Origin: Amoebophrya sp. A120
Lineage: Eukaryota; Protista; Dinoflagellata
Assembly: GCA_905178155.1 (NCBI GenBank)
Contig: CAJINV010000008.1
Span: 3,460,013-3,524,012, forward strand
Direction: 5' to 3'
DNA: 64,000 nucleotides
Position 1 is the first letter of the stretch. Every line of letters begins with the position of its first letter. Position numbers and translations under genes: made by a program. Positions 1 through 63,187 of the stretch are shown one piece after another. The notes under the pieces are model-generated. The model did no database searches. It was given only the letters and a program-made list of their open reading frames with translations, and was not told the DNA's origin.

Positions 1-3000
1 ACACCTGCCACAGCAGCGATCGCGGCAGACAGTCTGCTGAAACACCAGGTCAGCCAGGCGAGTCGCGCGTTGCGCGTGGCGCAGGCCATTTTGCGTTTGC
101 TGCACGAGGCGCAGGAGTTGAAGGTGATTCCCCAGGTCTCGCAACTCGAAGAGAACAGCAAGGAACAGCTGCACAACCTCTGCGCCAACATGTTCAGCGA
201 AGATAGTCTGTACTTCCTCGGCAGTGCCAAGGAGCCCCTCGCGGCCGTCAGCTTCGCCCTGACCATGCGGCCCGACTACCGTGGCGGCACGTCCTCCGCG
301 GCGACCGCGCGGGCGCGCGGGGGCCCGTTGCTGGGGGCGATGATCACGTCGACGGACTACTTTTCGCAGTTGCTCGAGGAGTTGGAGCAGCGAAAAGGCG
401 TCAACGCCGAGCAGAACTGCAGCTGGCAAGCCTGCATCGACGGGATTTTCGACCTCGTCCAGGAGCTCCGGATTCCCTTTCTGCTGCCCGCCTCCGCGCG
501 CGGGGAAAATTTCGAGCAGAAGCTGCTGCGGGCGTTGCAGAGCATGGAATTGCTGGAGGATTTCTATTCGACGAATATGCAAAACCAAGGAGATCATCAT
601 GATCCCGCTGAAATGATGAATCAGCTGCAGCCGGAGAGCATTTGGCGCCTGGTTCCGCCGGCGCGGTACTTGTTGGACAAACTGAACTCCTGTCCGTGGG
701 CGCAGGCGACCGACTACGGAATCATCCTAGACCGGCCCGACCAGTGGACCTTTCTGATCAACTATCCCACGAAAAAAGTGTTACAGTGACACATTTGTAA
801 TTCAATTCAGCAACACAAATTTCTCTGCATGAGAGAGAAAACTTGTAATGCATACAATCCTACGGGAAAACACCTATGAAACGAGGCTCCTATGCCGGCA
901 TGACAGAGCTTGTCTGTCTTGCTTGGCCTGCAGCACAATGTGTAACTGTAACACTTTTTTCTTCCCATATCAACGCGGAAAGCAGTTTCTCCGAACTGCA
1001 GAAGAACTCCGGCGTCGCGAAAGCGCAGGCGATCGAGAAGTATCAGCGGGCGTCCCTCAGCCAGCAGGACGACCGCGCGTTGCTTCTGGCGCTCCTACCG
1101 GAGGGCGCGGCGACGGTAGAGCGGCGGAACGTGTACAAGTACTTCCAGGAGAGGAAGCAAGTCCAGGTGTTCCAGAACAAAAGCTACTCCGAAATTCTGG
1201 AAATCTACGCGCGACTGCGAAACTTTTCGAAACTGCAGAAGGAGGCGATGTTTCTGTACCACGAGGTGGTCTTCGAGGGGAAGAATTTGTCGATCACGAA
1301 GAAGATATCAAGTGTAAAAATGTCTGGGTCTGGAAGATTTCGACATTTGTCATGCACATTTTGCATGACTCCTGATGTCTGTGATGCATGCCCTAGCATC
1401 AGAAATTTTTTGAGGGCTTTCTGATGCGTATCCTGCATGACAAATGCCCTCTCCGTGTAGCACAAAATCGAATCCTCTTGCTAGTCATGCAACACAGATT
1501 TTCCTAGAATCCGAAGACAGCATCAGAAGTTGCATCCTTCCAGACCCAGACATTTTTACAATCCATAGAAGAGGCAGATGTACGAAGAGTCCGTCAACCA
1601 GTGGTTCTGGACCGGCATCTATTGTGGAGAAAAATCCTCCCTCCCCATATTAAAGAGGTATGTTTCAACATCTAAAAAATTTGTGATGCTGATTTGTGGC
1701 CACAAATCCTGTCTCTCTTGCAAGAAGGCAAATCCAAAAAATCCGCCGCTTAATGGAGACGATTTGTAATGCTGTTGCACCTACATGGCAGGCCTCTGCT
1801 ATGCTAAGCGCCTACAACAAAACACCCCTACGCAGGCTGAGGCTTTGCCTGTGGTGCCTCACTGCAAGACAGGGCTGATTTGTGTACACAAATCGAGCAA
1901 CAGAAGTTTCCGCTTCAATATGTGGAGGGGAGATTTTTCACTTTGATAGCATCTTGACGCAATTGCGGTATCACAAGTACTGGAGCCTGAACAGATTACG
2001 GAGGAAGGTCGAGGAAGCGGAACGGGAACAGCAGACGAGAGCATCAACTGCAAAAAAGACCGGCAGAAATAATACCGACATTCTGAACAACTTCGCTGCT
2101 CCTGTGGAGGAAGTAAGCGCGAGGACCGTCTCTGTCCCACTTCCGCAGGAGTTGCAGGAGGAGTTCGGTACAACCGGTGCTGCCGCCGAGTTGGAGGAGT
2201 CTACGGACGAGGAAGCGGCACTGCACGAGGATTTTATGCAGGATTTCTTTCAGGAAGAAGACCCGGAGGAAGTGCGGCGGCGCGAGAGGAAGAAGCGAAA
2301 GAAAAGAAAACGACGCGAAAAAGAATTATTACTGCAGCGCCGGCGAGAACAAGAACTGGACGAGGTCTTTACGGGTGGCAATATGTTGTTCCCAACTTCT
2401 GCGGGCGGCCTAGGCGTCACCACCGCTGCGGCAGTGACCGCGACGGGACTCGTATCCTCCTCGGGACAGAACAGCACGAGAGGCGGAGTTCTTGGGTTTC
2501 AAGATGGCGATGATGATGTCGATATGCTGGCGGAACCAGGAAGAACCGAGGGCAATATGCTGTTGCCAGGAGAAGATAAAAATAAACAGATTTTATTGCA
2601 ACCGCATCAACCTGCTGACCTTCACGACGACGAGAGCGAGAAGCAGGAGCTCGCCGCTTTGCGCGACAAGATGCAAAAGTCCTTCGACGGGGTGGAGGAT
2701 GCGAAGCGCATGAAGCTCGCCGGGGCAGAAACAGCAGAAGTGAAAAATTTGCTGGTCGGCGGCGCGACTACTGGTACGGGTACCCACGTCGACTCAGTTG
2801 ACCGACAACTTCACGACCCGTCAGAGGATGTGGGTATGATGAATGCAGAAAAAGAGAACACCGATGCCCTCCCCGAGTTTTTGGAAGAGGAGTTGTCGAA
2901 GGAAAGGAGCAAACCCGGCGATCGCACGAACCGCTCCTCCACATCGTCCGCGTCCTCTACTTCGTCAGAAGAGATGAATTCTTCGCCCAGGAGCCAGGAG

Positions 3001-5884: not shown

Positions 5885-8800
5885 ATGGTTCGTTTTCGTC
5901 TGTTGCGTGTCTTTTCATCCGCCCTGGTGCCTCTTCATCATTGTGGTCGTTCTTCATGGCAGCTGCACCTCTTCTTCTGCTGCTCGAGGTTGGCGGCGCT
6001 TGGTACTACAGGAGGCAAGGAACAAGTTGCGGACGTGAAAAATATTGTGGGTAAGAAGACGAGCAACAGTGAGAAGGATCACGACCGCGGAGGAGGAGGA
6101 GGAGGTAGTAGATATGGAAAGCAGAAGGCAGAAATGGAAGTTGACGCGGAAGGAACAAATCACGCGGATGCGGATCCACCATCAGTTCAATATTTTACTG
6201 CGGATGAAGAACAAGACCAAGAGCAGGTGCAAGATCAACAAGAAGATCGTTCTTGGGACGAAGCGCGTCCCGCGAGAAAAATCGTGACGAAGCAAGCATC
6301 GACCGCAGCAGATTTTTTCCAACTGAAGACGCAGAACAGAAACACACAAACTGAAGGACAACTGCAGTTTCTCGCGAGAGAAAACGAAGGGAATAAATTG
6401 TTTTTGAACACGAGAACGGAAGAACACATCGCCAGTACTACAGCTACAGAGAAGAAGCGCCTGTTGTCGCAACAGGAGGAACTACATCATCAAGCAGAGA
6501 GCAGGAACAGTCTCAGTCAAGCTCAAGCTCGTGGTAGTGGCTTTTGGCGCGGTGGGGAGCAGAACACGACCAGCGACAGCTTGGCGACCGCCGATGGGGG
6601 AGACCAAAAAGAGAAGAAGTTGTCGGAGGGCGAGCCCGGATCGGCTTCATCTGCGGGAGCAGGACCGACTCGCAAAAATGAGCTGCAGCATCTGGTTCGT
6701 CAACCGGTGCCTGGCTCCCTGAGGAAGGAGTTTACCGTTGGACCCTTTGGCGTGGAGCAGGGCTTGGCAGCGTTCGCTACCTCGTGGACGCACCACACCC
6801 TGAAGATGAAAGCGGAGGTGGTCGACTGTGAGGAAAGTGAAAGTGGTGCCGATGTTGACAGCAGGAACACCGGCGGACCTTCTACTTCGAGCGCGGGAAC
6901 TTCTGCCAGTAGGGACATCCGCTTGGTTTACGTCTTCTCGGAAGAGCTCTCCTCCGCCGTGGTGGAGCATTGCAAACAGGCGGTCCCGGAGGACCATCGG
7001 CAGTTGGCCAGTGCGGATCGTGGCAGTGCTGCGGCCGCAAGACAGCTATGCAAAGAAAAAAATTTTACAGTAACACATTGTGATGCAAAACATGCAAAAC
7101 AGACGACCTCATTTATAATGCGCAAAATGCTTGCGAGTATGATCTCTGCATTAATATGCTGAATTCACTACAAATGTGTAACTGTTGTAACACTTTTTTC
7201 CTTGGATAACTGGCCGCGGGCGCATACAATTACCCACACGAAAAAATATTAAACGCCAACCCTGTACTAGGTCGTGACCACGTTGAACCAGATGCACAGC
7301 GGCCCCCACGTACGCTGGTCGTCAGGCTCTGGTTTCCCACGAAATTTGCGCGGGGTGCCTTTTTTTCTGGGGAGGACCGCACGGTGTACCGCCGGAAGTT
7401 CTACGCGCGCCGCCCCATCTATGGAAGTGTCAGAATCAAAATTGACAAAATCGAAAAATTTGTGATGCACAAAATCGATACCAGTTGAAGCCTCAGCTTT
7501 CAAGTGGCGCATGACAAATTTCGGGAGCACCAAAATCCAGTTTGTCATGCTGTTTGGGCAAAGAAGACTGCTCCTCTCATGCTACTCTGGCAGTACATGT
7601 TTAGGACTAAACTGGCGTGCAATCGGTCTCATTTGCCTCCTCTCCAACACAGGCCTTATGTGCTCTACGTTTTATGCATTACAAATTTTTCGATTTTGTC
7701 GATTTGGATCCTGACACTCCCATACCATCCCGGAGTACATCGAGGACATCTCTTATGCAAGAAAAAAACTGTGTAAGTGTAAATCTGTAATGCAGAACAC
7801 GCAACAGAGTTACCAGACAGACATGAAGTTCTCTTTTCCTGTGTGTTTTCCCTTACAAGCCACGCATGACAGGTTTTCTCTGTCATGTAGAGCAAATTTG
7901 TGATGCTGTCAGCCCAAGATAGTTACACCAACACAGTTTTTTTCTTGGATATCTCTCGTCCGGAAGGAGAAGCCCTGTCCTTCGCGACGACGTTTCTGCA
8001 GGTGATAGAGGCGGTTCGCCTTCAGCTCCACGACGGAAAGGATTTTCTCCTCAGGGAGGACAGCGTCGGCGCAAGTCCAGCCCGCCCGGGACCGAGAATC
8101 ATGCGGACGCTGGTCGGGAAGCGGCTGAGTGCCGTGACGGCGTGGCAGATTTTCGCGACGTCTCCGGTGCATTTATTTGACCAGCTTCTGCTGATTGATC
8201 CGGATTTCCCGACCTGCAGCACCCTAGGACAGTGCACAACTCTCCCTCGTCCCCCTCATTTTACGCCTTGGCCCTTGATGGCACTGTTTGCATGACAAGT
8301 AGTTCTGGCAGCCGAGTAAATAGCACTACACTCCTGGCCAAATTTGTCATGTAAAACGTGTATTCTTGCTGACGCTTGTATTGCTCCTGTTGATGCAATA
8401 CTACAAATGAGGGGGAGGGCGAGTTGTGCACTGTCATACACCCGGTATCTGCTGCAGAAGGTTGGCGTCAAGTACGCGGAGAGCTCCAAACTCGCCGGCA
8501 GTCCGGAAGCGCGCGCGAATCTCCGCTTCGGCTTGCAGCCGCGCGCGAATCCCGAGAATACGGAGGCGGCGAAGGCCGACAATCTGGCCGCAGAGGACCT
8601 GATTGCCGAACTGTCGGACGCCACGTACACGTCCCCGGCGGAGTATCTGAAGTTTCGGGACTACCTCGAATATTTGTACGACGACAGGAAAGACGGCCCC
8701 GTCACCCTCACGTCCGCCACCAACTCGGTCCAGGACCAGTTTCCTGGGGAGAGGGAGCTTGTGCTCCCAATCATCAACCAGTACATCTCGTCTACTCGGG

Positions 8801-10839
8801 AAGAGGAACAAGAAGCCAAGATGCGACATCAACTGTACCACGGTGCAGTGGACCTTGTTGAAAACGACGCTGCGGCGGAGGCGTGGGCGGTGCGACGGGC
8901 GGCCCGGGTGGCGTACCCCGTCACGCTGAGCGAGTTCGAGCACGAGAAGGAGTATTTCAATACCCACAATTTCCCCGTCTACCTGGGCGTCGCGAGCCTG
9001 GCCTCCGGCACGCCGACGAAAATTGCGATGGCGCAGAAGTTTTTCTTCCTCCAGGAGCAGCTGGACAAGCACTGCTACGGTGCCGCGGAAGACCCCACCT
9101 GCCCACAGGTGACGCCGGAGGAGATATCAACATGAAAAATCCCCCCTTCTCGTCGTCGTCGTGGTCCCCATATTCAAAAAAAAACTTGAACTTCTGATGC
9201 TGGATTTCTTTCCGTACACAAATAATAATAAGCTCCGTCTTGCACTTGCAAATGGGGACTGCAGGCACATCCCTAGCCTGTCTAGGAGCGGCATTCGGGT
9301 GTAGCTGCTGCTGTTCATGGCAAACGGCCCAAAATAAAGCATGTGAAATCACGACCTCCACAATAGGGCGCACAGACTAGACATGCCTTCCTGCAAAACA
9401 AAGCTGGTCTGTGGCGCCAAATCTGCAACACAAACTGTCCTTTTAAGTACGGGGAGGGAGGATTGTCGCTCACAATAGGAGACGCGTAATTTTCGCCGGA
9501 CAAAACTGCACCAGCGCAAACTTGACAGCACCAGAAACCGGCTGTTCCGGGAGCAGTGGCTGGACCGCCTGCAAGAAGAGTATGCGGACTTTATTTCGCG
9601 GTGGTGTCCTCTCACGACAGAGGAAGTGGAGGACGCCAAGAACAGTACGCTCGTGGAGGATCTGCCACTTCGGATAGCCTGATCAAAAACGTCCCCACCC
9701 CAGAGTTCGTTGTCATGCAGGTTTCTTTGCAATTAGTTGGCATGCGTGACTCCCAAAACTTCTGCATTTGTGATGCTAAGATCCCAAGAACTTGACTCTG
9801 GGTGGGGGACGTTTTTGCTCAGGATTTCAGGGGAGCGAGAAGACCTATCGCGGAGCGAGAAGACCTACCGCGCCGCGCATCGGAGGACGCCGCGCGGGGT
9901 CCCAAAGTCTTCGAGTACGGTCTCATCGGCAAAACCAGTTGACGGGGAACGAGGCTGCGGACGATATGAAACAGAGTCCAGGTGGACCACGACGAGATAT
10001 GACTACCCCACAGAACCTCAAAGCTTCTAGCAAGTGCGAGTCGACGTTTGCAGTTGCACCCCCACCACGGAAGATCGCTGTGCTGTACGGCATATCAAAT
10101 GTAAAAATGTCTGGGTCCTCTGGAAGGGTTGGAACTTGTGATGCAAACTCTGGAACACACAAAAATTTGTGTTGCATGAGCGCGAAAAGCTGTCCATTTC
10201 TTGGTACGCACGTAGGAAGTTTCTCATGCGGGACAGGCATCATGAGGCGTGCTCAAAACCTGTGATGCTTTTGCCTGCATCAGACGCCATTTGTGTGATC
10301 GGAAATATGCATGACACATCTCGCAATCTTCCAGACCCAGACATTGTTGCATTTGATACGGCAACGACCTGCCACGGCCCGCCGACGGGTCGATCACACC
10401 GAACATGTTCGATTGGATTCCTTTATCAAATGCAAACATGTCTAGGTCTGGAAACTTGTGATGCTAAAATGTGCATGATGAAAGCACTTCCGAATGCAGT
10501 CCGGCATGATAACTTCCCAAAACGCTTTCTCATAGGCAATTCGCATGAGAAACATGCAATGATGATGATGATAATGACAAAAGAGGCTGCGAGTTTTGTT
10601 GGTTATGCAATACAGATTCTCTAGGTATGGAAAGCTAGCATTACAAGTTGCAATCTTCCAGACCCAGACATTTTTACAATCCATATCCTTTCCAAGCCGC
10701 TTTGTTTGTGGACCACGTGAACCACTTGAACTTGCCGAACTTGCAAGTGAAACAGGACAAGTTTGTACAGGGAGAGGACGGCACAACGGACAGCCCGGCC
10801 ACCGTCGCGCTAGGCTTCAAGCTACTGGGGGGTTTGTAG
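5885..10839 (+). CDS. Hypothetical protein split by 8 introners
   Basis: In-frame joins after excision: RRPI|PEYIEDIS|RPEG, CST|RYLLQK, PEE|TRNF, LYG|NDLP, WIP|FQAAL; stop TAG 10837-10839. The junction at 9675-9826 is the least certain. Function unknown. Confidence 0.72.
7047..7208. mobile_element. Introner, family C, diverged TSD
   Basis: TAT...ATA ends, TIR like 763-969, flanks ACAGC/ACTGG; frame restored. Confidence 0.8.
7420..7724. mobile_element. Introner, family D (TIR TATGGAAGTGTCAG)
   Basis: Long TIR of about 50 bp, TSD CCATC (7415-7419, 7725-7729). Confidence 0.93.
7754..7951. mobile_element. Introner, family C-like
   Basis: TIR CAAGAAAAAAACTGTGT, TSD TCTCT (7749-7753, 7952-7956). 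Confidence 0.9.
8225..8438. mobile_element. Introner, family E (TIR GACAGTGCACAACTC)
   Basis: TAG...ATA ends, TSD CACCC (8220-8224, 8439-8443); frame restored. Confidence 0.9.
9125..9477. mobile_element. Introner, family B
   Basis: TAT...ATA ends, TSD GGAGA (9120-9124, 9478-9482); frame restored. Confidence 0.88.
9675..9826. mobile_element. Introner, family F (TIR AAAAACGTCCCCACCC), degenerate ends
   Basis: Clear TIR; ends are TAG/ATT and flanks TCGGA/TCAGG. Confidence 0.75.
9832..9871 (+). repeat. 20-bp tandem duplication GGAGCGAGAAGACCTAYCGC x2
   Basis: Two copies with one mismatch, just downstream of an introner. Confidence 0.85.
10093..10358. mobile_element. Introner, family A
   Basis: TSD CGGCA (10088-10092, 10359-10363); frame restored. 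Confidence 0.93.
10424..10685. mobile_element. Introner, family A
   Basis: TSD TCCTT (10419-10423, 10686-10690); frame restored. Confidence 0.93.
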
Positions 10840-11426
10840 CAGCGGGGATGAGAAGATGAAACTACAAGGCGTGATGTGAGCATGCAGCGATAAAACATGA
10901 CAAACATGAAGTGAATGTGAAGCACGTGATACCGGATTTAATGTTGAAAGAATGTCGGAGATCATCTTCCTTTTAGAAACCAACTTCGAGTGAGCGGCAC
11001 AGCAGCTCAGTTTCAGAAACGCAACTGTCTTTCTACGCTGCACGGAGCATTGACTCTTCTTCGTCGTAGAAGCGTCGCTGGAACAACGGTTGCCGGTCAT
11101 GCCTATGCCTGTGACACGTACAGCGGTGGAGCCTTCTAAAAACAAACTCGTCAATTTGTATGCGTATCTTTCACCTTTTATTGTACGTAGTGTGCATGTT
11201 CGTCCGTTTTTCTTTTTCGAGAGTCGACTACACGGAAGATAAGAAGAGCTGGGCATTACTTGCTGTTACTTCGACGTTCTTGGCAACAAAAATCAAAAAA
11301 GTAATATCTTTTTTTACATCTGGTATCGTTTATTTTCATTTGATACACGAGCTGCCATGGAATTATTCTGTTCTTCGGAGTCTGAAAAATCGCTTAAATT
11401 GACTAAGAAGTAAGAAACAGCTATCT

Positions 11427-13549
11427 ATGTCATCATCGTCGACTTCCCCATCCAGTGGGGTTTTTGTCCCAGCTTCTGCAGAAGCACTCGCATTAGCGCA
11501 AAACCGCATTCGGTTTCACTTGCTGATGCCAAGCCATGCGGGCGTCGCGGACCTCAGTTTCTCTCTTCGCGAAGAGGAGCCGCCTGGGACGCAGCAGAAC
11601 AATGCGACGGACTGGACCAACGCGCGCGTCGCTTGCGTTGTGGTGAGGGGAAAATTTGTATTGGAAAACAAAAACGAGAACAACATCTCGTCGTCGACGT
11701 CCACAGCTGGTGCTGATGTGAAGACAACTAGCTTCCGCTTGAAACAGTACCTCGCGAATGATTACTGCCCCGCTCCGTACCCGCACGCGGCACTCTGCCC
11801 CGGTTGGGGGGAGGTCAAAGAGACGTTTTTGTGTCATTCCTCTTCCGAAGTAGGTCCCAGTACCATAGCTGCCCCCGAGGTCGGAGCCTTTGCGGGGGTC
11901 GACTACGGGGGCCAAACGTGCGCCTGCGTCGCGCTCTTCGGCACCCTGGTCGAGATGCGGCTGTTGAGCAAGGGTCGTGGAGCAGCAGGCACTTGCAAGC
12001 AGCTCGTCGACGAAGTCTTCGAACCCGTCCTGAGCTCCCTCCGAGTAGCGGTTGCATCTGTGCATTGCAATAAACATGTCTGGGTCTGGAAGATGAAGCC
12101 GAGTTGTTCTGTGTGATGCTAGGTCCTCCTGCTCCCGGAGAGGAGGACACGAAGTTCTGTATTGCATGAGCAGGAAGTAGAGAACACACCCGATCATTTT
12201 GGTCGCGCTAAGGCGGTATCTATTTCAACATATGCAGGATAGGCACTGGGGATCTTATCCGTGTCAAAACTTGTGATGCTACAGCTCGCAGTCTAGAGCT
12301 TCTGAGGCATGCCAGAGCCAGACACGCTCACGCATGGCAAAAAGGAAAAACTGCATTCTTCCAGACCCAGAGGTGTTTCCACTTGATAGCATCTTCTTCG
12401 CTGCTACCTACAAGAACTATGCGGGAGGAGGAAAAATTATGCACCGATGCAGCCAAGAACACCGGTCAGTCAGGAAGCACAAGCTCTTCAGCCAGCGCCG
12501 CAACAGGTTGTAGAATCGCCATGATCATCCCCTATGCAAAGGCATGCTACTGGTCTCGGCACCCGGGTGCCACGCATGGGTACCGCGGACCCAGTTCGCT
12601 GTTTGACATTCCCTGGAACTATGGTCGGAAGGGCGTTGTCCCGGTGTGGAAAGTGGCTGGGGAAGCGGGAGACGACGTCGCCGCAGCGGCCCGTACGTTG
12701 GTGGTAGTCGGTGAAGGCCGCACACAGACTACACAATACCATCTCGACAGCGTCGGGGTGCTATATCGTGAAGAGGACAACGTGGTCCCTAAAGGTGCGC
12801 ACTCTCCTGCTTCGGGTCGTGCGCCCGGTCGTGAAAAGAGGAAAATTGTCGAAACGCTCTTGCTGTACCGCTGTGGGCCGCACCATTTTGTGTGGCTTCG
12901 CCGATATGCTAGATAAAATAGAGCGCACCTATTGCAGACAAAAAAAAGAATTTGTGTGGCTATTTTTCTGGCACAAAGAAATGTGGACACCAGGAGAGCG
13001 GCTATTTTCTGTCATGCAGAACGCGTTTTGTAATGGTACTGGTAGCTGGTGAAAACTAGAGAGGTCCCAAAAAAGTTTGTCATGTCGAGCAAACAGAAAG
13101 AGGATCGTCGTACGTAGATACAGCACTACAAGTTGACTTTTTTCTGGCACGGGTGGACTTTAAGTTTAACTTTTCTGTAGTATATCCAAACTTCGTCCTG
13201 CGCCCATTGGCCTCCCAAGAAGGGGCCGTTTCCGCTTGCGAATGGGGAGTACCCGAAGGAAATGACGGTTGGGGAAGAAGATGGTGGTGCTGCAAGTAAG
13301 ACCCAAACAGACGGCGCAGCGAAAAATTCCATCTACGTCGCTTGCTGTGACGAACGCATCGGAGCCTGGGATGCTGTATGGCGGTCGAAGCCAACACACG
13401 AAGGGGACAACGAAGGCACGGATCTTGATGCTGATTATGTGGTGCTCTTGCAAGCGTCACCGAGCGCGCAGATGGACAAGGACGGCTTTTTTAGGATGTT
13501 GGACGCGGCGATGAAACTAGCTGCGTCCTTGTGGTCATCTACTTCCTGA
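11427..13549 (+). CDS. Hypothetical protein, 3 exons
   Basis: ORFs 11427, 12383 and 13262 join in frame after removing elements 12059-12388 and 12905-13184. Confidence 0.65.
12059..12388. mobile_element. Introner, family A (diverged, TGT start)
   Basis: TIR GTCTGGGTCTGGAAG, TSD GCATC (12054-12058, 12389-12393). Confidence 0.88.
12905..13184. mobile_element. Decayed introner
   Basis: TAT...ATA ends, weak TIR, flanks GCCGA/TCCAA, internal TGTCATG motifs; frame restored. Confidence 0.55.
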
Positions 13550-43522: not shown

Positions 43523-46247
43523 ATGGAAGACGCCGCCGAGGGCGACAACAAGAACTCAACAATAACACCTCCGGTCGATTTCTCGACGCTGCCCGCGACG
43601 CCGACAGCCGTCCGCATTCGCATTCTCGTCCGGGAACTGCGCATCGCGCACGAGGGCGGCCGCGAACAGCTGCAGATTCGCGTGTCGTTCCACGTGCTGT
43701 GGCAGGACCACCGGCTCCATGACTACCCGGCGGAAAAGTCGTCCCAACTACCGGCAAACATCTGGCGCCCGGAGTTCAACTTCCACCTATTGGAAATGGT
43801 TGAAAAAAAGCAGGCGCACCATCTACTTCCGCCGCAGTCCTCTTCTCATCTGCTCGAACAGCAACCTATCCCCCCCGGGCCCCAGCCGATGTTTTTCAGT
43901 AAGGACCGCAAAGTGCGTATCCTGTGTAAAAACGTACCCACCCCAGAGTTGTCATGCAGATTTGCAATGACAGAAACACTTGTGATGCGCTTCCCCATGA
44001 AAGGCATTTCCAATCGTGTTTCGGCATTTGTAATGCTGTGACCAGGATGAGCAGATGGATTTCTGATGCAGCTGGCCTTGCGAACCTGCACTACACTAAG
44101 GACTGCAACTTGTGATGCGTGACCCCCAAAAGCTCTAGGTTTGTGTTGCAAAGTCCCCATGTCGACTCTGGTGTGGGGACGTTTTTACACAGCATAGTGC
44201 GGGATCTGATTCATATGACTGTGGACTGCAAGCTCCTGTCCATCGACTTGCTCGACGGCAACGCGCGGAATCGAGAGGCCCTGCGGAACTTCCCCTTCGA
44301 CTCCTTCAAATTTGACTTTGTCGTATCTATGAACGGGGCCGTCCGGCTGGAAAGCAGCGACCTCGTGGACGCGCAGCTCGAGAATATGGAAATCAAGGGC
44401 GAATACTTGCGTTGGCGCCAAGCGGAGCGGGAAGCGGATGTGGCGGCGGGCAAGGGCGTGGCGGAGGAAATTGTCACTCATATTGTTCAAGAACACGGTT
44501 CTGGAACTGAAAATAAGAAACCTGTCGGTAGAACGACCACAGGGAATGAAGACATCAGAATGGATGTCCAAGTCGTGCAACAAGAAGCGGCCCCAGCTGC
44601 CACCGCGTCCCATGCGCGATATGCGGACAAGGGGATCTCGGCCGCCACGGGCGCGGGCGAGCATTTCCGGTTCGAGGCACCGCTTCTCTCGGGGGAGTTT
44701 GCGGTGACGCGGTTCGTCTTATCGAAAGGAAAAATCCCCCCTCAACAAAACTTGTGTTGCTGTATTTGAGTACACAAATCGACTTGTATTGCTAGAAGGC
44801 CAAGAGACGCAGCTGCTCCCTCGTTTGGAGGCAATTTGTCACGCTGTTTCCCGTTTCCAGTTGCTTTCTGTCATGCTGAAGGCGCAAGGCGTTCCTGCGC
44901 CAGCCAGCACTACAGTCCGCATCTCTTCCCTTCTAGCATCACAAAGCTGATTTGCGACCACAAATCTGCATCACAGATTTCCGCTTTGATATGGGGAGGG
45001 GGCATTTTTCATTGTAATACGTCTACGGCATGGGCGAAAACCGTTCCCCCCTTTCCGGAATGTTTTTTCGTCAGTTGTTTTTTCGGGTGGAAATCAAGCG
45101 CGACCCCACATACTATCTCTACAAGGGCGTGCTGCCCATGCTGCTGGTCTTCTGTGTCAGTCTCATCGGCACGGTGGGCCTCAACTCGAAGGACTTTGCG
45201 GGTGACAAACTCAGCGGGCTGCTGGCAGCCATTCTCACCCTGTTCGCCATCCAGTGGACCATTGCGGACCGCCTGCCCCGGCTGCCGTTTCTCACCGAGC
45301 TGGACCGGGTGTCAATGAGCTGCGGCACCGGGCTTTTGTTGCTCGTGCTTGGCGTTGCGGTCTCGCATCAGGTGGCGTTGAATTTTGACGACGAGGCTGA
45401 TCCCGATAGCGAAAGCGACTCGAGGACGATCGCTGGGACTTCCGCGACAAATTCCCCTGCAACGACGAGTACAACCAGCATAAAATCTTCTTCCGCCAGC
45501 GAGCGACTTCTGGCACCCTCTTCGCTGATCAGTTTCGGATGTGGCGCGGTTTCCCTCCTGTGGGTCGGCCTGGGGCTGCTCAGGAGCTGGCGCGCGGCCG
45601 TACGGGCCAGGAGGTCCTCTGGTAGTACCACAACCTCAGCCGCGACGAGCGCAGGTGACCGTGCTGGGGAGTCAAGCAGGCATACGCAAACAGGGCCAAG
45701 CGATGTTGTTCCCAGAACATTAGAGGATGTTGATCAAGTTCAAGCCGACTACGTTGTCAACGCGAACTGCAAGTCAGACCGCTGGAAGAAGCCGCCGTTC
45801 ATGCAGGGCAAGCTTGTTATCACACACAAAATTTTCAATATTGTTGTATGCAGCGTGGATAAATTGTAACGTTTACGTTTTCCAATTCCAATGTCTCAAC
45901 ATCTGTCATGCAAAAACAGACGGGCAACAAATTCTCTCCTCCGCGAGCCGATGAATTCTCATCTAGTGGCATTTTCATTGCGCCATCAATAGTCATGATC
46001 GAGATTCCACTATGAAATGATCGCGCACGACGCACGCGCACCAGCAATGTTTGTTTATTGTGCGATACTCGTGCGGGCACTGAAGTACGACGTGGTTCTT
46101 CCAGGGATCGGCCCTATCACTTTTCTCAGTCGCCCGCTGGCGCTGTACGAAGCGACTTCCGAGGAGGATTTCGAACGCAAGGTCGGCCGCGAAATTGAGC
46201 TCGAGGAGTTCGATCCGGCGGGGAAAATTATGGGCATAGAGTGGTGA
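43523..46247 (+). CDS. Pentameric ligand-gated ion channel, Cys-less (Pro-loop, GLIC/ELIC-like)
   Basis: WQDHRL, IWRPEF, NFPFD Pro-loop, IKRDPTYYL pre-M1, four hydrophobic helices with LPRLPFLTELD M2-M3 loop; three introners. Confidence 0.85.
43918..44196. mobile_element. Introner, family F
   Basis: TSD GTGCG (43913-43917, 44197-44201); RKVR|DLIH in frame. Confidence 0.93.
44720..45019. mobile_element. Introner, family B
   Basis: TSD CGTCT (44715-44719, 45020-45024); RFV|YGMG in frame. Confidence 0.92.
45818..46067. mobile_element. Decayed introner
   Basis: TATCACACA...TGTGCGATA ends, flanks CTTGT/CTCGT; KLV|RALK in frame. Confidence 0.72.
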
Positions 46248-54510: not shown

Positions 54511-57500
54511 ATGAACAACATGGAGGGTGGTGGCTCTTCTTCATCGCACCTGCACTATGGTGCGGCCATGGCCCTCGACGTGAAGGAGGATGTCGTCCCT
54601 GAGGGCCACACGGTCGAGCTCCGCGCTGACCACATGGCCGCGAAGCGGGAGCTTTTTAATCGGGAGAGGTCCATGATCACGGCGGACATCCAGGGCAGGC
54701 GGACACTGCAGCTGCCCACCCGCGATGAGGCGGTCCGGGCGAAATTGCGCGACTACGGCGTGCCCATCACGCTCTTCGGCGAAGGACCGTATTTTTTCTT
54801 TGATTTTTTGCAATCCGAGTCGCTCGTCATGTTGCAGTGTGTGAAGAGCGATACTTGATGTCCTCGTAAGTACTGTCTTCTACAACAACTTTCGTCACTG
54901 TTTTGTTTCTTGCATCAAGATCATGTGTGAGAAAAAAAAAATAGATCTTCGATTTCACTGCAGGTATGAGAGGCGCGAGCGTCTGCGCGGCATAATGACC
55001 GGGAGCCGGGACACCACGGAGTCTGGCAAAGTAGATGCGGACGGCGGCGCGCCGCAGGACGACGAGCAGCGAGAACTATTTCTTACCGTCGGCAGCGACC
55101 TCTTGAGGGAGCGAAGAAAAGGAATAGCAAAGTATGATATTATGATAATGATTTTTACGACCAAAAAAAAAACAAGCCGAGTAAAGGGAATTCTTTATCG
55201 AGCATTTTATTTCTACTCCTAAAGTATCTTTACAAGGAAAAATCGCATCAAAATGAAAACCCTGTACTCTAGGTTTTCCTTCGCAGCCGCGCAAGCGCGG
55301 TTGGATCAGGAGCGCGAGGACGAAAAGATTCGCGCCGCGCGGGAAGAGGAGAACGAGAAATTTTGCCAGCACGTCACGGACACCGTCTCCATTGAGCTGT
55401 CGCAGGTCGGCGACACGCGGCCGCTGACGCAAGGCCGTTTTTCAAAGGACGGAAACGTCTTCGCCACGAGTAGCTGGACCGGCCACATAAAACTGTGGAA
55501 CAGCCCGCAGGGCACGCATTTTCGCACCCTGCACTCCGGCGTGGAGACCCGTGCGCACGGGGTCTGTTTCGCCAATCTGGACAACAACACCGCGTTGATG
55601 GATACAGCTGCTGCTGCGTCAACTACAAGCGACAATTCTGCTGGTCCACCGCAGCGACTGCATCACTTGGCGGGCGCCATGGCCAATGGCTCGGTGTGCG
55701 TCTGGCGCAGCGACCAGGAGCTGCCGCTTTGCACACTGAAGGGCCATATGCATTGCAATTATGTCTGGGTCTGGGAGGATGCGAACTTGTCATGCTAAGT
55801 CTGGATCGTACAAAAATTTGTGTTGCATGACTGCCAACAGCTGTCCAGTTTTGAACAAGTTTAGAGGCAGTTTGTCATGCAGGATAGGCATGCTAGGGAC
55901 GTCGCAGAACCTGTCATGCTAGGTCCTGCATTCCAAACCTCATGCGGCATGGAAAATATGCATGAGAAGTTTGCATTCTTCCAGACCCAGACATTTTTAC
56001 ATTTGATAGGCCACGAGGACCGCGTGAACCGGGTCGCCTTCCACCCGTCGGGCGCAAACTTAGTCGCTTCCACCAGTCACGACCAGACCTGGCGGCTTTG
56101 GGACGTGGAACGGCAAACAGAGCTGCTTTGTCAGGAGGGCCATTCCAGTGGTACAGTTTTTTTTGGCAGCATACTGAGAAGTTTTCTTTGCAACCTTTTC
56201 TCGTCTCTGCGCAAAAATCACAAAATGTTTGCATGCTCGTTCACGTTGTAGTTGTTGGTCTAGTTGTCGCGCAAGTGCATAGAAGTTGAGGGTGTGTTGT
56301 AGTTGCAACGAACACCAAAATGATGTTGACTTGATTGCAACATCATTTTTCCGAATCGCACTTCTGCAGGTGTTTACGGACTCGCAATACATCCGGATGG
56401 CAGTCTGCTGTGCACCACCGATCTGGGCGGCATCTGTCGCGTTTGGGACCTCCGAACAGGGCGCACCGTGCTGCCACTGCAGGTAAGGGCGAGATCCTGT
56501 TTTCTTTTCATTTCAATTCACGCTATTGAATTACAATTCAATTCACAATCGAGTTTGCATTTGGTAGTATCCAAATTGGAAGTAGTAGAAATCTCTCATC
56601 GATGGCTGATCTCCACTCCTAATCGGTTTATTTCATCACAGGGCCACTACGAGCAAGTCCTCGCTTGCGACTTTAACCAGCGCGGCTTTCTGCTCGCGAC
56701 AGTACGAAGTGCGAATTTGAACTGGATCATTTCGGGATCTGGAAAGTTGTAAGACCATTCGTGGCCTGTTGTAGTTTGTGCCACTACGTTGCTTGTAGTT
56801 TCTGACTCTGCATGAGGGCGACTACTGAAGCTGAAGGATCCTGGTCGTTGTATATGTAAGTACGCTACTACCTAGTGCTATTCCAGACCCGCGAGCATAA
56901 AGTTCGTTTTTGCACTGGATACTCGGCGAGTGACGACAACACCGTGCGTTTTTGGGACCTGCGGAAGCGCAAGTGCGCCAACACGCTGCAGGCGCTATCA
57001 ACTGTAAAAATGTCTGGGTCTGGAAGATTCTGAAACTTGTCATGTACGTTTTGCATGAGTCATGATGTCTGTGATCCATACCCTAGCAATACAGATTTTT
57101 TGAGGGCTTCTTGATGCCTATTACGCATGACAAATGCCTTCCCAGCGTAGCAAAAATGCCAGCACGTGTACAGATGCGACAGGAGTCTGCTTGCGGACAA
57201 AATAAAACAAGGGGGGAAAGGCAAGAAAGGGCAAAGTGACTGCATGACGAAAATATGGGTAAAACACACGGAAAAGGAAGAGGCCACGACGGTAACAGTA
57301 GAGGAATGGAAAGGGAAAGAAGAGCACATGGCAACAATTGAAACGAGGCAGGATCACCTAAAGACAGAAGTTAGGACAGAAGAACGAAAATTCGTAGCGT
57401 ATTGCAATAACGCCATGAGAGCGATAGAGATGGTGAAGAAGCAGCAACGCGAAGGGAGTGGAGGTGTGTGCGTGTGCTTGCTGGATTACGACGAGATGAA

Positions 57501-60129
57501 AGAGAAAACGCGGGGGCTCCTGCGGAAAGAACAAGGGATAGCGCTAGAGCTGCAGGAGGAAATAGAAAAAGCAGAGGAACAGATCCCGGGATTAATAGTA
57601 GCCAGGCGCTGGGGGAAGCAGAACGCGCCCAAAACCCTCGCAAAGAGAGAAGCACAAGGGGGCTATACAGAAGTGATACCCTTGAAGGTGGCAAACGTAT
57701 CGAAGCACGACGACGAATATGCCGAATGGGTTCAGTACGATTTCGGGGCAAAAAATGTGCCGACAAAACCGGTCTGGGAATGGCCGGAAATGTCAAAAAT
57801 AGAAAGACAAGTGTACATCTACCGGAAGATTATAGGAGATGAAAAGAAAGAAGGGCAGAAAACGGAGAAGGGAAGCGGTGAAGGCGGGGACGGCAGAAAG
57901 AAAGGCAGCGCAGGAGAGAGGAAGGGGAAGGGGGCAGGCAGCAGTGCGAAGGAAAACGCTCGCTGCGGAAAAGGCCCCAAGGGGAACACTGCGCCGATGG
58001 ACACGAGCAGGGAGATAGGCAACGGGTCATTAGCAGAAACAATCAGAAAAATGGTAGAAGGGGAAAAGATAAGAGCACAAAAAGAAGGAAGTGAAATGCT
58101 GCAGAGGGCGCTGGATATAATAGGAAGAGCCACAGACCTACTAGAAACAGCCGAAGACGTTCCACTAGAATCCCGCGCGACGCCGAGCAGCAGCACCAGG
58201 AGAGACGTGCCGGAAATAACAGAAGGGCGAAATGAATCAAAAAAAGAAGAAAAGGACGAAACAGAGGAAGATGCGTATTTCTACCCGGCGCAGGAGTATC
58301 AGGGAAGCCGCCCAGGATACGTGTACAAACTTGGGCATTTTGGCATGGGGTATTATAAGGATCAAGGACCGGAGGAGGCAACGCGGGAGATGTTTCAAAA
58401 AATTACGATAGGGGGGCCAGGAGGCAAACTGCCCAAGAGGGAAGTTTCGAAAGAACAGAAAACAGCGAGCAAAGAAGTTGCAGGAGATGCGACGCGACAT
58501 GAGAAGAACACGCAGCAAGTGCGCCAAGTGCCGGAAAAGGAGGACGAAACAGAAGCGACAGCACGAGAAGCAGCAGAACCAGGTGGAGAAGGGGGATTTG
58601 GAGGACTGAAGAAGAAAATCGCTAAAGATATAAGCGAAACAGAGATGGCAAAACAAAGAAGATAAAAAGGAAGAAAAAAGATTCCCAACGCTGGAGGAGC
58701 TGAACGAGAGGGACCGGAAGCGGGACCGCGAAGAGGCAGCGGAGCGGGAAGAGGAGCGCAAGCGGCAGGAAGAATGGAGATCTATGAAAAGACTGAAGTA
58801 TGGAAATCCATTACAAGATGAGTTAGCCCAGAGGTATAGGAACATGCGCTGAGAAATAATGATGAAGGAAATGTCCAAAAATGATGAAAGAAAGAGAACA
58901 GAGAACGAAACATAAGGACGCATAATGGGGGCACAGTGTTCTGGGCGTCGGCGGAGGGGAGAGGAAGCAGAGGAAAGAAAAAGAAAGAGAAGAAAGAAAG
59001 TGGCTCCCTTGGTCGTCACAGCTAGCCTGCAAGGGCTCCGTTTCCGCCAGCTAAAAGGCACGGCGCTGCTAATCATTTCGTCCTCGCCAGCCGGTAGGCA
59101 CGGCGCTGCTATCCCGTCGTCGTCATTGCGTCCCTTTTACTAGTAGGTGGCAACAGGGTTGCTAAGTTAAAGACTGCGCTAAGGCAGCGCCCCCCTTCCC
59201 CAAGGGGCCCCCCGGGGCGGGCGCGGTGGCGGCTCTGCTAACGCGGAGCTTCAAAGTCCGATTCTACCTATGCGCATAAAAAGGGTGCGCGGAAGCAGGT
59301 CGGTAAAGTGCTTGAAAGGGGCATGCTTTGGGGTTGCCCGGCATCGTGATAGGGTCAACGTGTGTGACCAATAGACCCCCTGTATATCATAGCGCGCAAC
59401 CGACCACAAAAGCAGTAGCGTTTTACGTTTGTAAGAATAACCCCGCAAGGCAACACTGGAGCTCCACCTTGCTCGCGGGCTTGGATGGTAAATCAGGTCA
59501 GCCACATCTAACGCCCACAGGCCGTATACACGCGTAAGAAATCGGAAACGGTTCAGCGGATGCGGTCGGGTGGTACCTGTAGGACGTGGAACGGGTGTCC
59601 ACCTAGGGGTATTGGCAGAGGCTGAATCTGTTCTAACGCCACGGCTTTGGCAGAGGCTAAATCTGTTCTAACGCCACCCTGACAGGAGTCAAATGTCAAA
59701 GCGATACGATACGAGCGTAGCAAAAATGGCACTTCCTTTGGTACTCATGCAATATATACAGATTTTTTTGGAATCCAAACGCAGCATCACAAGTTGCATT
59801 CTTCCAGACCCAGACATTTTTGCATTTGATAGGCGCACAGCAAGTGCATCTCCGAGGTCCAGTTCGACGACACGGGGCGGTACTTTCTCACCTCCAGCTA
59901 CGACAAGACGGTCAAGCTGTGGAACGTGGACGACCGGCACTGCGTGAAGGTCCTGGTTGGCCACGAGGCCCGCGTGATGGGCGCGGCAATCTGTCCCGCG
60001 GTCGGACAGAATTTGAGCAGCAAGGGCCGGGCCTTGTCCGCGCTCGTCGCCTCCGTGGCCTTTGACCGGACGTTCAAGTTTTGGGCGACCAACGGAGGAT
60101 ACATCGAGGACGGGATGGACGTGGATTGA
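54511..60129 (+). CDS. PRPF4: U4/U6 snRNP WD40 protein Prp4
   Basis: Prp4 motif [19 protein letters not shown]|[16 protein letters not shown], then WD40 repeats (GHEDRV..FHPSG, WDLRTG, WDLRKR, GHEARV). GT-AG introns 54790-54963, 55132-55272, 56151-56369, 56483-56641, plus three introners. Confidence 0.93.
55747..56008. mobile_element. Introner, family A
   Basis: TSD GGCCA (55742-55746, 56009-56013); KGH|EDRV in frame. Confidence 0.94.
56703..56921. mobile_element. Decayed family-A-like introner
   Basis: TAC...ATA ends, TCTGGAA/TTCCAGA remnants, flanks GACAG/CTCGG; LAT|ASDDNT in frame. Confidence 0.65.
57166..58852 (+). pseudogene. Purine-rich charged/coiled-coil ORF of the nested element, frameshifted near 58635-58660
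   Basis: 499-codon ORF to 58665; a +1 frame continues [20 protein letters not shown]...RYRNMR* to 58852; strong A/G bias unlike host genes. Confidence 0.6.
59045..59123 (+). repeat. Imperfect 40-bp tandem repeat x2
   Basis: CGCCAGC and AGGCACGGCGCTGCTA each recur at a 40-bp period. Confidence 0.8.
59612..59677 (+). repeat. 31-bp direct repeat x2 (TTGGCAGAGGCTRAATCTGTTCTAACGCCAC)
   Basis: Copies at 59612-59642 and 59647-59677, one mismatch. Confidence 0.9.
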
Positions 60130-61385: not shown

Positions 61386-63187
61386 ATGAAAGCCGCATTT
61401 TCATGCTGCTGCTCGGGCAAGGAGTCCTTGAAATTAAACGAGCAGAAGCTGAGTCCGATTCATCAGGACGAAGCGGACAAGTACTCCATTTTCGGCAAGA
61501 AGTATGTGACCAGCGGCGCAAAGAATTCCGTGCTGAAGGTCAAGCAAAAGTTCTGGTCCATGACGGGAAACGACTATGACGTAATGGACATGAACGACGA
61601 CAAGGAGGAAAAGATCGCTTTCAAGGTGAAGGGAGAGAAGTGGTCCCTGCGGAAGCAGAAGAAAAAGATTTTTGACAGCGACGGGAAGCCGGTGTTTTCC
61701 ATTTTCGGCACGGGCTGGTTCCACCACAAGCAAGCGGTCAAAAAGCTTGACGCGAAGGAGGAAGAGGGGGAGCAGGACATCTGCACTGTATATTATGCCA
61801 TAGATTTTTTGACGATATTGGATACATCGTAATTTTCGTGCACTTGTTTTCAGCTCATGATCAGGATATTTTCGTGGCGTTTTGATTTTTCGCGATACAC
61901 AAATGAAAATATGTTTAAAACGACATCTTTCACAGATCAATTCCAACTGCCCCAACACGGTCCAGTACACGGAAGACGGCATTTCCGGGAAAAACAAGTT
62001 TTACCTGAAGTATATCCAGTGTGAAAGAGCGGCTCCCTCCCCAAAGTCAACATGGGCCTTTTTCTACACCAAGAACTCACCGCTTTTGGTTGTCGCTCAT
62101 GACTACAAGTTTGGGCTCAAAGCGTCATGGTGTTTAGCCAGTTGTGTAGCTGCACCAGAAAAAATCGATCGCGTCATTCGGAATCATCTAGCGTGTGAAA
62201 AAAATTTGCAGCCAACGAAAATTCGAATATTGAAAATGCTGATCATGGTGAGGTTGCACATGAGAAGCGCTGTAGTCTTCCTTGCAGACTTGCATAAAAC
62301 AAGTCTGGGGAGGTGTTGACGATGTTTTTTCACAGGATAAAGTCGCACATGTCCTACTGCGCCTACAGCGGAGGCACTATCTGGCTGCTGAAGAACCCCG
62401 ACACAACGTCCAGCCCGCTGGAGACCTCCGGTAAAGAGGGAGCCAGCCCAGCGGACACCGGGGCCATTTGCATCGCCAAGATGTACTCGCCTGTGACTGC
62501 GAAGAGCTTTGCCCTTTTATCGCCCGAGAAAACTGTAGTCGAACTTCGTTAAGAGACATCGATTTGATGACTTTAGAAATTATACAAGCGAGCTTATTTC
62601 TTGCGGCCTACAATAAACAAAAACATTAAACAAGAAGGTTTGTCTGCCTCGTTCGTGTCTGTGCATGGGCGGAAGGAATGTGGGACTCGCTCTTGCATAT
62701 CTTCTTGCAAGAAGACCAGAGCTACTTTCTGCGTTGCACCGGTTACAATGACACTTGTTGATAGGCTGCAGTTTTTTCGTGCGATAACTCCCGGGAAAGT
62801 GGACCCCGCAGGACTACGTGGTGGAGATCGCGCCCGGCGTGGATCAGGCGCTGATTCTATCCTGTTCAAAACCTTCAGTCCCACGATGTGGTGTCTGTTA
62901 CTTTTCATGTATGTTTGCGGACATGGTGTTAGTGTTCAAAAGAAAAAGGTTCAACAACTCCCACCACTTGCATGTTTTTCACGCGGAAATGGTATGATGA
63001 CTTGTAGCAGCGAGGACGTTGGATAATACTAGTTAGTAGAGTACAGTCCTTTCCCATGGTGCATGAAGATTATGCTTCTGGGAGTTCTGGGAACTACGAG
63101 CACACGGGAACCAACCGTCTTTGCACAGGATAGGATCTGGCGTGGATTCTGGCTTACGCTGAGATGGATGACGCGGACAATCACTAA
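61386..63187 (+). CDS. LURP-one-related / tubby C-terminal-like protein
   Basis: LKVKQKFWSMTGNDYDV..FKVKG..IFDSDGKPV and C-terminal DYVVEIAPGVDQALIL; GT-AG introns 61788-61935 and 62010-62335, two introners; stop TAA 63185-63187. Confidence 0.8.
62518..62786. mobile_element. Introner, family C-like, diverged TSD
   Basis: TIR TATCGC.CGA.AAAACTG.AG, flanks CCTTT/ACTCC; frame restored. Confidence 0.8.
62858..63132. mobile_element. Introner, family F-like, diverged TSD
   Basis: TIR TATCCTGT.CAAA, flanks GATTC/GGATC; ALI|LAWIL in frame. Confidence 0.75.

What the first reader, a model, noticed from the sequence alone, without database searches (positions are those of the whole stretch)
763..63132. 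Multi-family TAT...ATA / 5-bp-TSD introner system that is removed precisely without GT-AG signals
Seen: about 29 elements from at least 6 distinct TIR families share TAT...ATA-type termini and a 5-bp flanking repeat (18 perfect). Deleting element + 5 nt restores the frame, including inside conserved PRP4 and ion-channel motifs. Six TSDs (TCAAC, CCATC, TCTCT, CACCC, TCCTT, CCTAT) contain no G, so no register of precise excision yields GT-AG. Known: TIR/direct-repeat introner elements and abundant non-canonical introns are reported in Amoebophrya, with the removal mechanism unresolved to my knowledge. Inference: removal is guided by the end-pairing hairpin plus the TAT/ATA ends, by a modified spliceosome, a non-spliceosomal nuclease/ligase, or DNA-level excision resembling ciliate IES removal.
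Basis: partly seen in the sequence, partly recalled or inferred. Interest (0 to 1): 0.85.

Follow-up and report, generated by a model that had tools for sequence, protein, structure and literature searches.

The report
Amoebophrya introners cut at fixed register
These are the already published hairpin-ended transposon introns of the marine parasite Amoebophrya A120: they are missing to the base from transcript-like contigs although they lack GT-AG ends, and the informative junctions point to one likely cut position (one base before, four bases after the element), probably made by a loosened spliceosome rather than by deletion from the DNA.

Summary
Observation confirmed. I count 32 TAT...ATA elements of 152-394 bp (one is 2,836 bp with a nested insert); 19 have a perfect 5-bp target duplication. 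Two window genes match proteins named Amoebophrya sp. A120 at 100%, and the ends fit the introners of Farhat et al. 2021, so the system is published. In RNA-like contigs (one sample), 12 of 15 elements in the stretch tested are removed as element+5 nt, including 4 with G-less duplications; nearby in-frame GT/GC-AG pairs are not used. Three decayed duplications fix the cut, if it is one fixed register: N-TAT...ATA-NNNN. The element then supplies +2..+4 of this organism's own GTAY donor, while G+1 and the final AG are dispensable. DNA-level excision is not supported. Best reading: a relaxed U2 spliceosome guided by the end-pairing hairpin (0.6); a Euglena-like non-spliceosomal route remains open (0.25). 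One element (19453) restores its frame only as GC-AG. I found no paper stating the fixed register, but this scan reported it on at least seven other pieces of the genome.

The parts
763..969 (+). Introner, family 3, TSD TCAAC (perfect, G-less)
   Evidence: frame opens with +5; no RNA joint listed
1306..1567 (+). Introner, family 1, TSD GAAGA
   Evidence: RNA joint skips 267 = 262+5
1620..1948 (+). Introner, family 2, TSD GCATC
   Evidence: RNA joint skips 334 = 329+5
7047..7208 (+). Introner, family 3, decayed TSD ACAGC/ACTGG; register-informative (cut after TSD base 3 or 4)
   Evidence: joint 7044>7212, 167 nt, in 3 of 4 runs
7420..7724 (+). Introner, family 4, TSD CCATC (G-less)
   Evidence: removed together with 7754 around a micro-exon
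7754..7951 (+). Introner, family 3, TSD TCTCT (G-less)
8225..8438 (+). Introner with TAG left end, TSD CACCC (G-less); removed in X1-X3, retained in an X4 contig
   Evidence: joint skips 219; X4 piece 7947-9118 unbroken; retention gives a stop
9125..9477 (+). Introner, family 2, TSD GGAGA
   Evidence: joint skips 358 in 4 of 4 runs
9675..9826 (+). Introner, family 5, TAG...ATT ends, decayed TSD TCGGA/TCAGG; register 3 or 4; right copy reads CAG at the inferred 3' splice site
   Evidence: joint 9672>9830, 157 nt, 4 of 4 runs
10093..10358 (+). Introner, family 1, TSD CGGCA
   Evidence: joint skips 271
10424..10685 (+). Introner, family 1, TSD TCCTT (G-less)
   Evidence: joint skips 267
12059..12388 (+). 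Introner, family 1, TGT left end, TSD GCATC; a GT(12060)-AG(12389) pair is at hand but not used
   Evidence: joint skips 335, not 330; the GT-AG form gives a stop at aa 256
12905..13184 (+). Introner, decayed TSD GCCGA/TCCAA; register 4 or 5; weak end pairing; retained in an X2 contig
   Evidence: joint 12903>13189, 285 nt, in 3 of 4 runs
18827..19150 (+). Introner, TSD TCCAA (perfect, G-less)
   Evidence: no RNA joint listed
19453..19652 (+). Introner, TSD GAGGC/GCAGC; likely exception, frame restored only as GC-AG intron 19451-19656 (206 nt)
   Evidence: no RNA joint
20977..21229 (+). Introner, family 1, TSD CCTAT (G-less)
21295..21550 (+). Introner, family 1, TSD ATCGG
21613..21875 (+). Introner, family 1, TSD ATGAC
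24290..24499 (+). Introner, TSD TTGAG/GTGAG
   Evidence: frame
24763..25078 (+). Introner, family 4, TSD ACATG
26408..26694 (+). Introner with TAC left end, TSD TTCCT/CTCCT
   Evidence: frame opens with +5
26766..27094 (+). Introner, family 2, TSD GCGGG/TCGGA
41462..41855 (+). Introner, TSD GAAGT/GCCAT, in a 483-aa ORF (methyltransferase-like by recalled motif)
   Evidence: frame
43918..44196 (+). Introner, family 5, TSD GTGCG, in Cys-loop channel-like gene
44720..45019 (+). Introner, family 2, TSD CGTCT, same gene
45818..46067 (+). Introner, TSD CTTGT/CTCGT, same gene
55747..56008 (+). Introner, family 1, TSD GGCCA, in PRP4
   Evidence: model identical to P0001
56703..56921 (+). Introner with TAC left end, TSD GACAG/CTCGG, in PRP4 (GT...CG at the inferred register)
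   Evidence: model identical to P0001
56996..59831 (+). Family-1 introner enlarged to 2,836 bp by a nested insert, TSD GGCGC, in PRP4
57159..59713 (.). Nested 2.56-kb insert between 15-bp direct repeats (57144, 59714), with a + strand stop-free frame of 504 codons that has no Pfam family above cut-off
62013..62339 (+). Introner, TSD AAGTA/AAGTC, in LURP-one-related gene; register 5 would give a stop
62518..62786 (+). Introner, TSD CCTTT/ACTCC, same gene
62858..63132 (+). Introner, TSD GATTC/GGATC, same gene

Best explanation
The elements are non-autonomous, hairpin-ended mobile elements of Amoebophrya A120 that duplicate 5 bp on insertion and are missing from transcript-like contigs as element+5 nt, likely cut at one fixed register (5' N-TAT ... 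ATA-NNNN 3') and probably by a U2-type spliceosome that no longer needs G+1 or the final AG. Shown: identity, 5-bp TSD, removal length, non-use of nearby GT-AG. Inferred: (1) one register, after TSD base 4 on both sides; (2) TAT stands in for +2..+4 of the host's GTAY donor and is read by U6; (3) the terminal hairpin brings the ends together and the 3' site is set by distance, 4 nt past ATA; (4) because both ends read TAT, a copy is removable in either orientation and restores the original coding sequence, which lets the elements spread through exons. Untested: that A(-7) is the branch point.
For: 12 of 15 elements removed as element+5. Three decayed TSDs allow registers {3,4}, {3,4} and {4,5}; the only common one is 4, and all ten single joints are compatible with it. 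Register 5 makes a stop at 62013. All nine 'predominant' non-canonical end classes for A120 in Farhat's Table S4 begin N-T, and all nine for A25 begin TT. The window's 8 canonical introns all begin GTA, 7 of 8 GTAY; element variants include TAC twice. snRNP27 was not detected in A120 (Table S6), and loss of SNRNP27K goes with a +4 U preference (abstract of PMC10581693). Two decayed right TSD copies (9675, 19453) read CAG exactly at the inferred 3' site. One outside copy with +2 C has +1 G, a GC donor (L130; no RNA). Nearly all spliceosomal proteins and U2, U4, U5, U6 are reported for A120. Tunicates show that a U2 spliceosome can handle 95% non-GT/AG introns (abstract of PMC13326754). Family-1 copies removed in RNA lie in both orientations by summed BLAST scores (1306, 10424 against 10093, 12059).
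Against: No direct evidence on the machinery: no lariat, circle or knock-down data. The register rests on three junctions from one sample and assumes a single register. The RNA status of X1-X4 is the tool's guess, though they leave 17375-18041 uncovered where DNA run X5 is continuous. U1 snRNA was not detected. There is no AG and no U2-like branch motif upstream of A(-7). A(-7) is kept in 32 of 32 window elements, but the search favoured ATA ends; only 4 of 8 canonical introns have it; and among 8 end variants in outside copies 2 change it (one clear, one with weak orientation). The TAT/ATA stem would have to be opened for snRNA pairing. Element 19453 needs +6. Two decayed TSDs (7047, 9675) have G in the exonic copy and non-G at intron +1, so G+1 shows no gain there. 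NCBI's model of the LURP gene (P0003) reads into element 62013 instead of removing it.
Confidence: 0.6

Rival explanations
1. A second, non-spliceosomal RNA pathway (structure-guided nuclease plus ligase, or an unknown machine as in Euglena) cuts at fixed distances from the terminal stem.
For: The geometry resembles the Euglena code, a paired triplet with a shorter 5' and longer 3' spacer: N3CDG / CH'GN5-6 (abstract of PMC12501133) against N1-TAT / ATA-N4 here. 29 of 32 elements have complementary ends and 0 of 8 canonical introns do. Neither G+1 nor AG is needed. U1 was not found. Farhat et al. conclude that the mechanism should be distinct.
Against: The 5' end matches +2..+4 of the host's canonical donor. 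CAG appears at the inferred acceptor in two aged copies, and one copy seems to have become GC-AG. Element 12905 is removed precisely with little end pairing. TAT/ATA conservation can be explained by transposition alone.
Confidence: 0.25
2. Removal is RNA splicing, but the cut can slide within the duplicated 5 bp, or differs by family; the single register is a small-sample effect.
For: Nine of 12 junctions are ambiguous over 6-8 positions. Farhat's Fig. 3 legend calls the splice sites variable relative to the hairpin. Element 19453 needs a donor one base further upstream.
Against: Three elements from different families share only register 4. Table S4's top classes all have T at +2. The frame excludes register 5 at 62013.
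Confidence: 0.08
3. The elements are excised from DNA in some life stage, as ciliate IESs are.
For: Precise loss of the element plus one repeat copy is what clean DNA excision would leave. X1-X4 are only guessed to be RNA.
Against: DNA contigs 8413-9772 and 10669-21004 run unbroken through five elements (contigs drop rare alleles, X5 may be the assembly's source, and 608 joints were not shown). RNA-like contigs carry retained copies of 8225 and 12905 beside removed neighbours. A haploid cell with one nucleus and no germline copy would lose the elements for good (own knowledge).
Confidence: 0.03
4. The junctions are reverse-transcriptase template switches across a hairpin between direct repeats, or assembly artefacts.
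For: Hairpin plus direct repeat is the known recipe for such artefacts (recalled). Only contigs of one sample were seen.
Against: Junctions with a single base of ambiguity still give element+5. Eight genes, PRP4 among them, have an open frame only after removal, and the PRP4 product aligns with its intact A25 orthologue.
Confidence: 0.02

Closest known systems
Introner elements / non-canonical introns of Amoebophrya sp. A120 (Farhat et al. 2021, PMC7789003; seen: abstract, sections 10-12 and 16, passages, supplement part 3 and figure legends; figures not seen)
   Same: Same organism by protein identity. Inverted repeats start TAT + 7 nt + at least three A; direct repeats of 3-5 nt; many families; about 240 nt; RNA-supported removal without GT-AG.
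   Different: The paper leaves the border position variable or unknown and reports no clear dinucleotide signature. Here the repeat is strictly 5 bp and the informative junctions fit one register with T at +2. Its text on repeat positions and the Fig. S23 legend ('1-5') may already hint at this asymmetry; I could not see the figures.
TIR introners of A120 in Gozashti et al. 2025 (PMC12130899; passages seen)
   Same: Diverse TIR DNA-transposon-derived introners driving intron gain in A120.
   Different: The four passages seen deal with origin and mobilisation, not with the cut position.
Non-conventional introns of Euglena (Nomura et al. 2025, PMC12501133, abstract and introduction; review PMC11282704, passages)
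   Same: No GT-AG, end-pairing stem, TSD-like repeats, fixed spacers that are longer on the 3' side, coexistence with canonical introns, machinery unknown.
   Different: The paired triplet is CAG/CTG at +4..+6 with a purine after the 3' site; here it is TAT/ATA at +2..+4 and -7..-5, with no purine rule (18 of 32 pyrimidine).
Non-canonical introns of Fritillaria borealis (Soo et al. 2026, PMC13326754; abstract and three passages)
   Same: MITE-derived introns outside the GT/AG rule, handled by a conserved U2 spliceosome with altered recognition.
   Different: Those introns have preferred ends (AG-AC, AG-AT), a conserved U1 and duplicated U2AF; A120 has free +1 and -1/-2 bases, and U1 was not found.
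Micromonas and Aureococcus MITE introners (via PMC9860276 and PMC11282704 passages)
   Same: TIR + TSD elements whose splicing restores the coding sequence.
   Different: They carry or co-opt canonical splice dinucleotides; these need neither.

Membership tests
Amoebophrya A120 introner elements | Host is Amoebophrya sp. A120 | tested here: met
   two window exons are 100% identical to proteins so named
Amoebophrya A120 introner elements | Terminal inverted repeat starting TAT, seven variable bases, then an A run | tested here: met
   TAT in 27 of 32; A in 22-29 of 32 at element positions 11-15; end duplex z <= -2 in 29 of 32
Amoebophrya A120 introner elements | Direct repeat of 3-5 nt at the exon/intron borders | tested here: met
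   5 bp, perfect in 19 of 32
Amoebophrya A120 introner elements | Repeated in the genome (families) | tested here: met
   five multi-copy groups in the window; TIR depth far above single copy in DNA run X5; 12 singletons not tested one by one
Amoebophrya A120 introner elements | Removed from transcripts without GT-AG | tested here: met
   12 of 15 in RNA-like contigs of one sample
U2-type spliceosomal intron | GT/GC at the 5' end and AG at the 3' end | tested here: not met
   0 of 32 GT-AG at the inferred register; 19453 may be GC-AG at +6
U2-type spliceosomal intron | Donor positions +2..+4 like the host's canonical introns | tested here: met
   T 32 of 32, A 31 of 32, T/C 30 of 32; canonical introns GTAY in 7 of 8; partly circular, because elements were sought by TAT
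U2-type spliceosomal intron | Branch adenosine and lariat intermediate | tested here: inconclusive
   A(-7) in 32 of 32 window elements and 4 of 8 canonical introns, but changed in 2 of 8 outside variants; lariats cannot be seen in contigs
U2-type spliceosomal intron | Removal depends on snRNPs | not testable with these tools
   needs depletion or inhibition
Euglenid non-conventional intron | N3CDG / CH'GN5-6 | R signature | tested here: not met
   ends are N-TAT / ATA-N4 with no purine rule
Euglenid non-conventional intron | Excised as circles without lariat | not testable with these tools
   no intron-derived reads available
Ciliate IES (DNA excision) | Element-free DNA alleles, TA boundary with one TA retained | tested here: not met
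   DNA contigs unbroken through five elements (rare alleles would be missed); what is retained is one 5-bp repeat of variable sequence, not TA (IES rule recalled)
MITE / TIR DNA transposon | TIRs, fixed-length TSD, no coding capacity | tested here: met
   108 of 127 outside family-1 copies have a perfect 5-bp TSD
MITE / TIR DNA transposon | Cognate autonomous transposase | not tested
   no genome held; Farhat et al. found none in A120

The most novel reading that the evidence does not exclude
Amoebophrya runs a second, GT/AG-free intron-removal machine that measures from a terminal RNA stem (one base before, four after), convergent with the Euglena non-conventional pathway, so that any TAT...ATA transposon in either orientation is a harmless intron.
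Probability: 0.25. Interest if true: 0.8.

Novelty: already known. Interest (0 to 1): 0.42.

Why it matters
The elements and their non-canonical removal are published, but the mechanism is open and the paper left the borders undefined. A fixed register turns this into tests: it names the exact 5' and 3' cut, predicts where to look for a lariat branch, predicts pairing of U6 with the TAT, and gives a rule for correcting gene models (NCBI's model of the LURP-one-related gene here reads into an element). If the spliceosome does it, A120 shows how far GT-AG can be relaxed; if not, it is a second case of Euglena-like splicing.

Tried and rejected
No whole genome was held, so there is no genome-wide count and no search for U1, U6, METTL16 or transposases. 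No listed holder was on record as RNA. Raw RNA reads X8 and X9 lay only on element fragments (669 and 7 reads, all partial) and gave no junction. Including the DNA run swamped the joint table, so elements at 20977-26766 and beyond 41 kb have no RNA test. One joint (10478>10597) lies inside an element and was left out as probably coming from another copy. My first ends for the element near 26400 and for several canonical introns were wrong and were corrected from the frame. No longer annotated protein was found for gene 18.2-22.1 kb, so the 19453 junction stays open. Amino-acid homology rarely separates registers. The idea that A(-7) is kept for its own sake is not robust in outside copies (orientation right in 189 of 200 leave-one-out pieces, no RNA for those loci). 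MFE folding of whole elements does not always pair TAT with ATA. Five paper searches showed no paper on the A120 cut register or lariats; only 40 of 472 rows were listed, and Roy et al. 2023 (Curr Biol) was not read.
Full report
What is in the window. A scan for TAT...ATA pairs with complementary ends and a flanking repeat, completed by building gene models, gives 32 elements on the + strand, all inside reading frames, and 8 ordinary GT-AG introns. The elements are 152-394 bp; one is enlarged to 2,836 bp. The flanking repeat is exactly 5 bp and perfect in 19. Fifteen pairs have both a perfect repeat and complementary ends, against none in 100 shuffles. BLAST groups them into five multi-copy families and 12 singletons.

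What organism and system. A PRP4 exon and a LURP-one-related exon are 100% identical to proteins named Amoebophrya sp. A120. Farhat et al. 2021 describe, for this strain, introner elements whose inverted repeats start with TAT, seven variable bases and an A run, with 3-5-nt direct repeats; 65% of RNA-supported introns are non-canonical. The window's elements fit that description, so the system is known. A scan of the metagenome collection with a family-1 motif returned 151 loci holding 127 complete copies, 108 with a perfect 5-bp repeat; I did not trace their origin.

Are they removed, and how exactly? Contigs of four runs of one sample, guessed by the tool to be RNA, were laid on 700-20699. 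They leave an intergenic stretch uncovered that the DNA run covers, as RNA should. Of the 15 elements in the stretch, 12 show a joint and each skips the element length plus 5; 763, 18827 and 19453 have no joint listed. Four of the 12 have G-less repeats. For 6 of the 12 an in-frame GT/GC-AG pair lies within 15 nt and is not the junction seen. At 12059 a GT and an AG sit at the element's ends, yet the contigs skip 335, not 330; the GT-AG form would give a stop at residue 256. Contigs show presence, not absence, so minor forms are not excluded. Outside the stretch, element+5 gives a PRP4 protein identical to NCBI's and opens the frame for 27 of 32 elements in 8 genes.

The register. With a perfect repeat the cut can lie anywhere in it. 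Three removed elements have decayed repeats: 7047 allows a cut after repeat base 3 or 4, 9675 after 3 or 4, and 12905 after 4 or 5. If there is one register, it is 4: the intron is N-TAT...ATA-NNNN. I derived this (note 1) before reading the scan's earlier notes, at least seven of which report a fixed register on other pieces of the genome; those notes are not independent support. Further support: register 5 makes a stop at 62013, and all nine leading non-canonical end classes for A120 in Farhat's Table S4 begin N-T, although that table depends on how the aligner placed ambiguous junctions. The paper's Fig. 3 legend calls the border variable or unknown; I could not see the figures, and the legend of Fig. 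S23 ('1-5') may hint at the same asymmetry.

How it likely works. At register 4 the element supplies T+2, A+3 and T+4, while +1 and the last four bases come from the target and are free. The host's canonical introns all start GTA, 7 of 8 GTAY, so TAT (and the TAC variants) reads as the host donor without its G. snRNP27 was not detected in A120, and its loss is associated with a +4 U preference (abstract), which fits recognition by U6. Two aged copies read CAG at exactly the inferred acceptor. One of them (19453) restores its frame only as a GC-AG intron of 206 nt, which is an exception to element+5 but keeps the same 3' position; its gene also has an in-frame TAG and may be decaying. The ends of 29 of 32 elements pair well and those of canonical introns do not, so the hairpin likely replaces the missing G and AG by holding the sites together. 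Because both ends read TAT, orientation should not matter, and family-1 copies of both orientations are removed. Removing one repeat length restores the pre-insertion sequence, which explains tolerance in conserved genes. I put this at 0.6. The machinery itself was not observed.

Results against. U1 was not found in A120. There is no U2-like branch motif. A(-7) is invariant in the window, but the search favoured ATA; only 4 of 8 canonical introns share it; and 2 of 8 outside end variants change it. The branch-point idea therefore stays a guess. Element 12905 is removed precisely with little predicted end pairing, so the hairpin is not the whole code. The geometry also resembles the Euglena code of fixed spacers around a paired triplet, whose machinery is unknown; that rival gets 0.25.

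DNA excision. DNA contigs run unbroken through 9125, 12059, 12905, 18827 and 19453, with the caveats that contigs drop rare alleles and that this run may be the assembly's source. RNA-like contigs of X4 retain 8225 while neighbouring elements are gone, and an X2 contig retains 12905; both retained forms carry stops and look like incompletely spliced RNA. A single-nucleus haploid cell could not keep elements that it deletes from its DNA (own knowledge). This option gets 0.03.

Verdict. A real feature, already described as a system. The useful addition is the fixed, asymmetric register and its match to the host donor, which I did not find in print in five searches but which this scan has noted repeatedly. 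Novelty: already known. Interest 0.42.

Noticed in passing
window 57144-59728: A 2.56-kb insert between 15-bp direct repeats sits inside the family-1 introner in PRP4. It holds a stop-free frame of 504 codons with no Pfam family above cut-off, two 31-bp tandem repeats and a short repeat tail. The enlarged 2,841-nt intron is absent from NCBI's PRP4 protein.
   Followed up: partly
window 18204-22114: Paralogue of the gene at 23309-27330, with an in-frame TAG at codon 581 and a frame that needs a 206-nt GC-AG cut at element 19453; little RNA-like cover. Pseudogene, read-through or a hidden intron.
   Followed up: partly
window 61386-63187: NCBI's A120 protein P0003 reads into element 62013 and ends there; removing three elements gives a 255-aa ORF instead, so the public model is probably wrong.
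   Followed up: partly
window 10636-10678 and 24790-24821: Raw RNA reads of another isolate (X8) match only short element stretches, in more than 500 reads at 24790-24821 and with other flanks. The same element families seem to occur in that isolate, and some copies are abundant in its RNA.
   Followed up: no
window 7725-7753: A micro-exon of about 24 nt after splicing lies between two adjacent elements and is kept precisely in three runs.
   Followed up: yes
window 54511-60130: The splicing factor PRP4 itself carries three introners and four canonical introns, so its expression depends on both kinds of removal.
   Followed up: yes
L001-L151: 150 or so loci from one assembly in the metagenome collection carry 127 complete family-1 copies about 70-82% identical to the window's; none of their flanks gave an extended match to the window's exons.
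   Followed up: partly
window 28180-33415, 47033-50200, 51926-53358: A kinesin-like gene with two canonical introns, an intronless XPG/Exo1-like gene and a TPR-like gene with one canonical intron (names from recalled motifs, not from a call).
   Followed up: no
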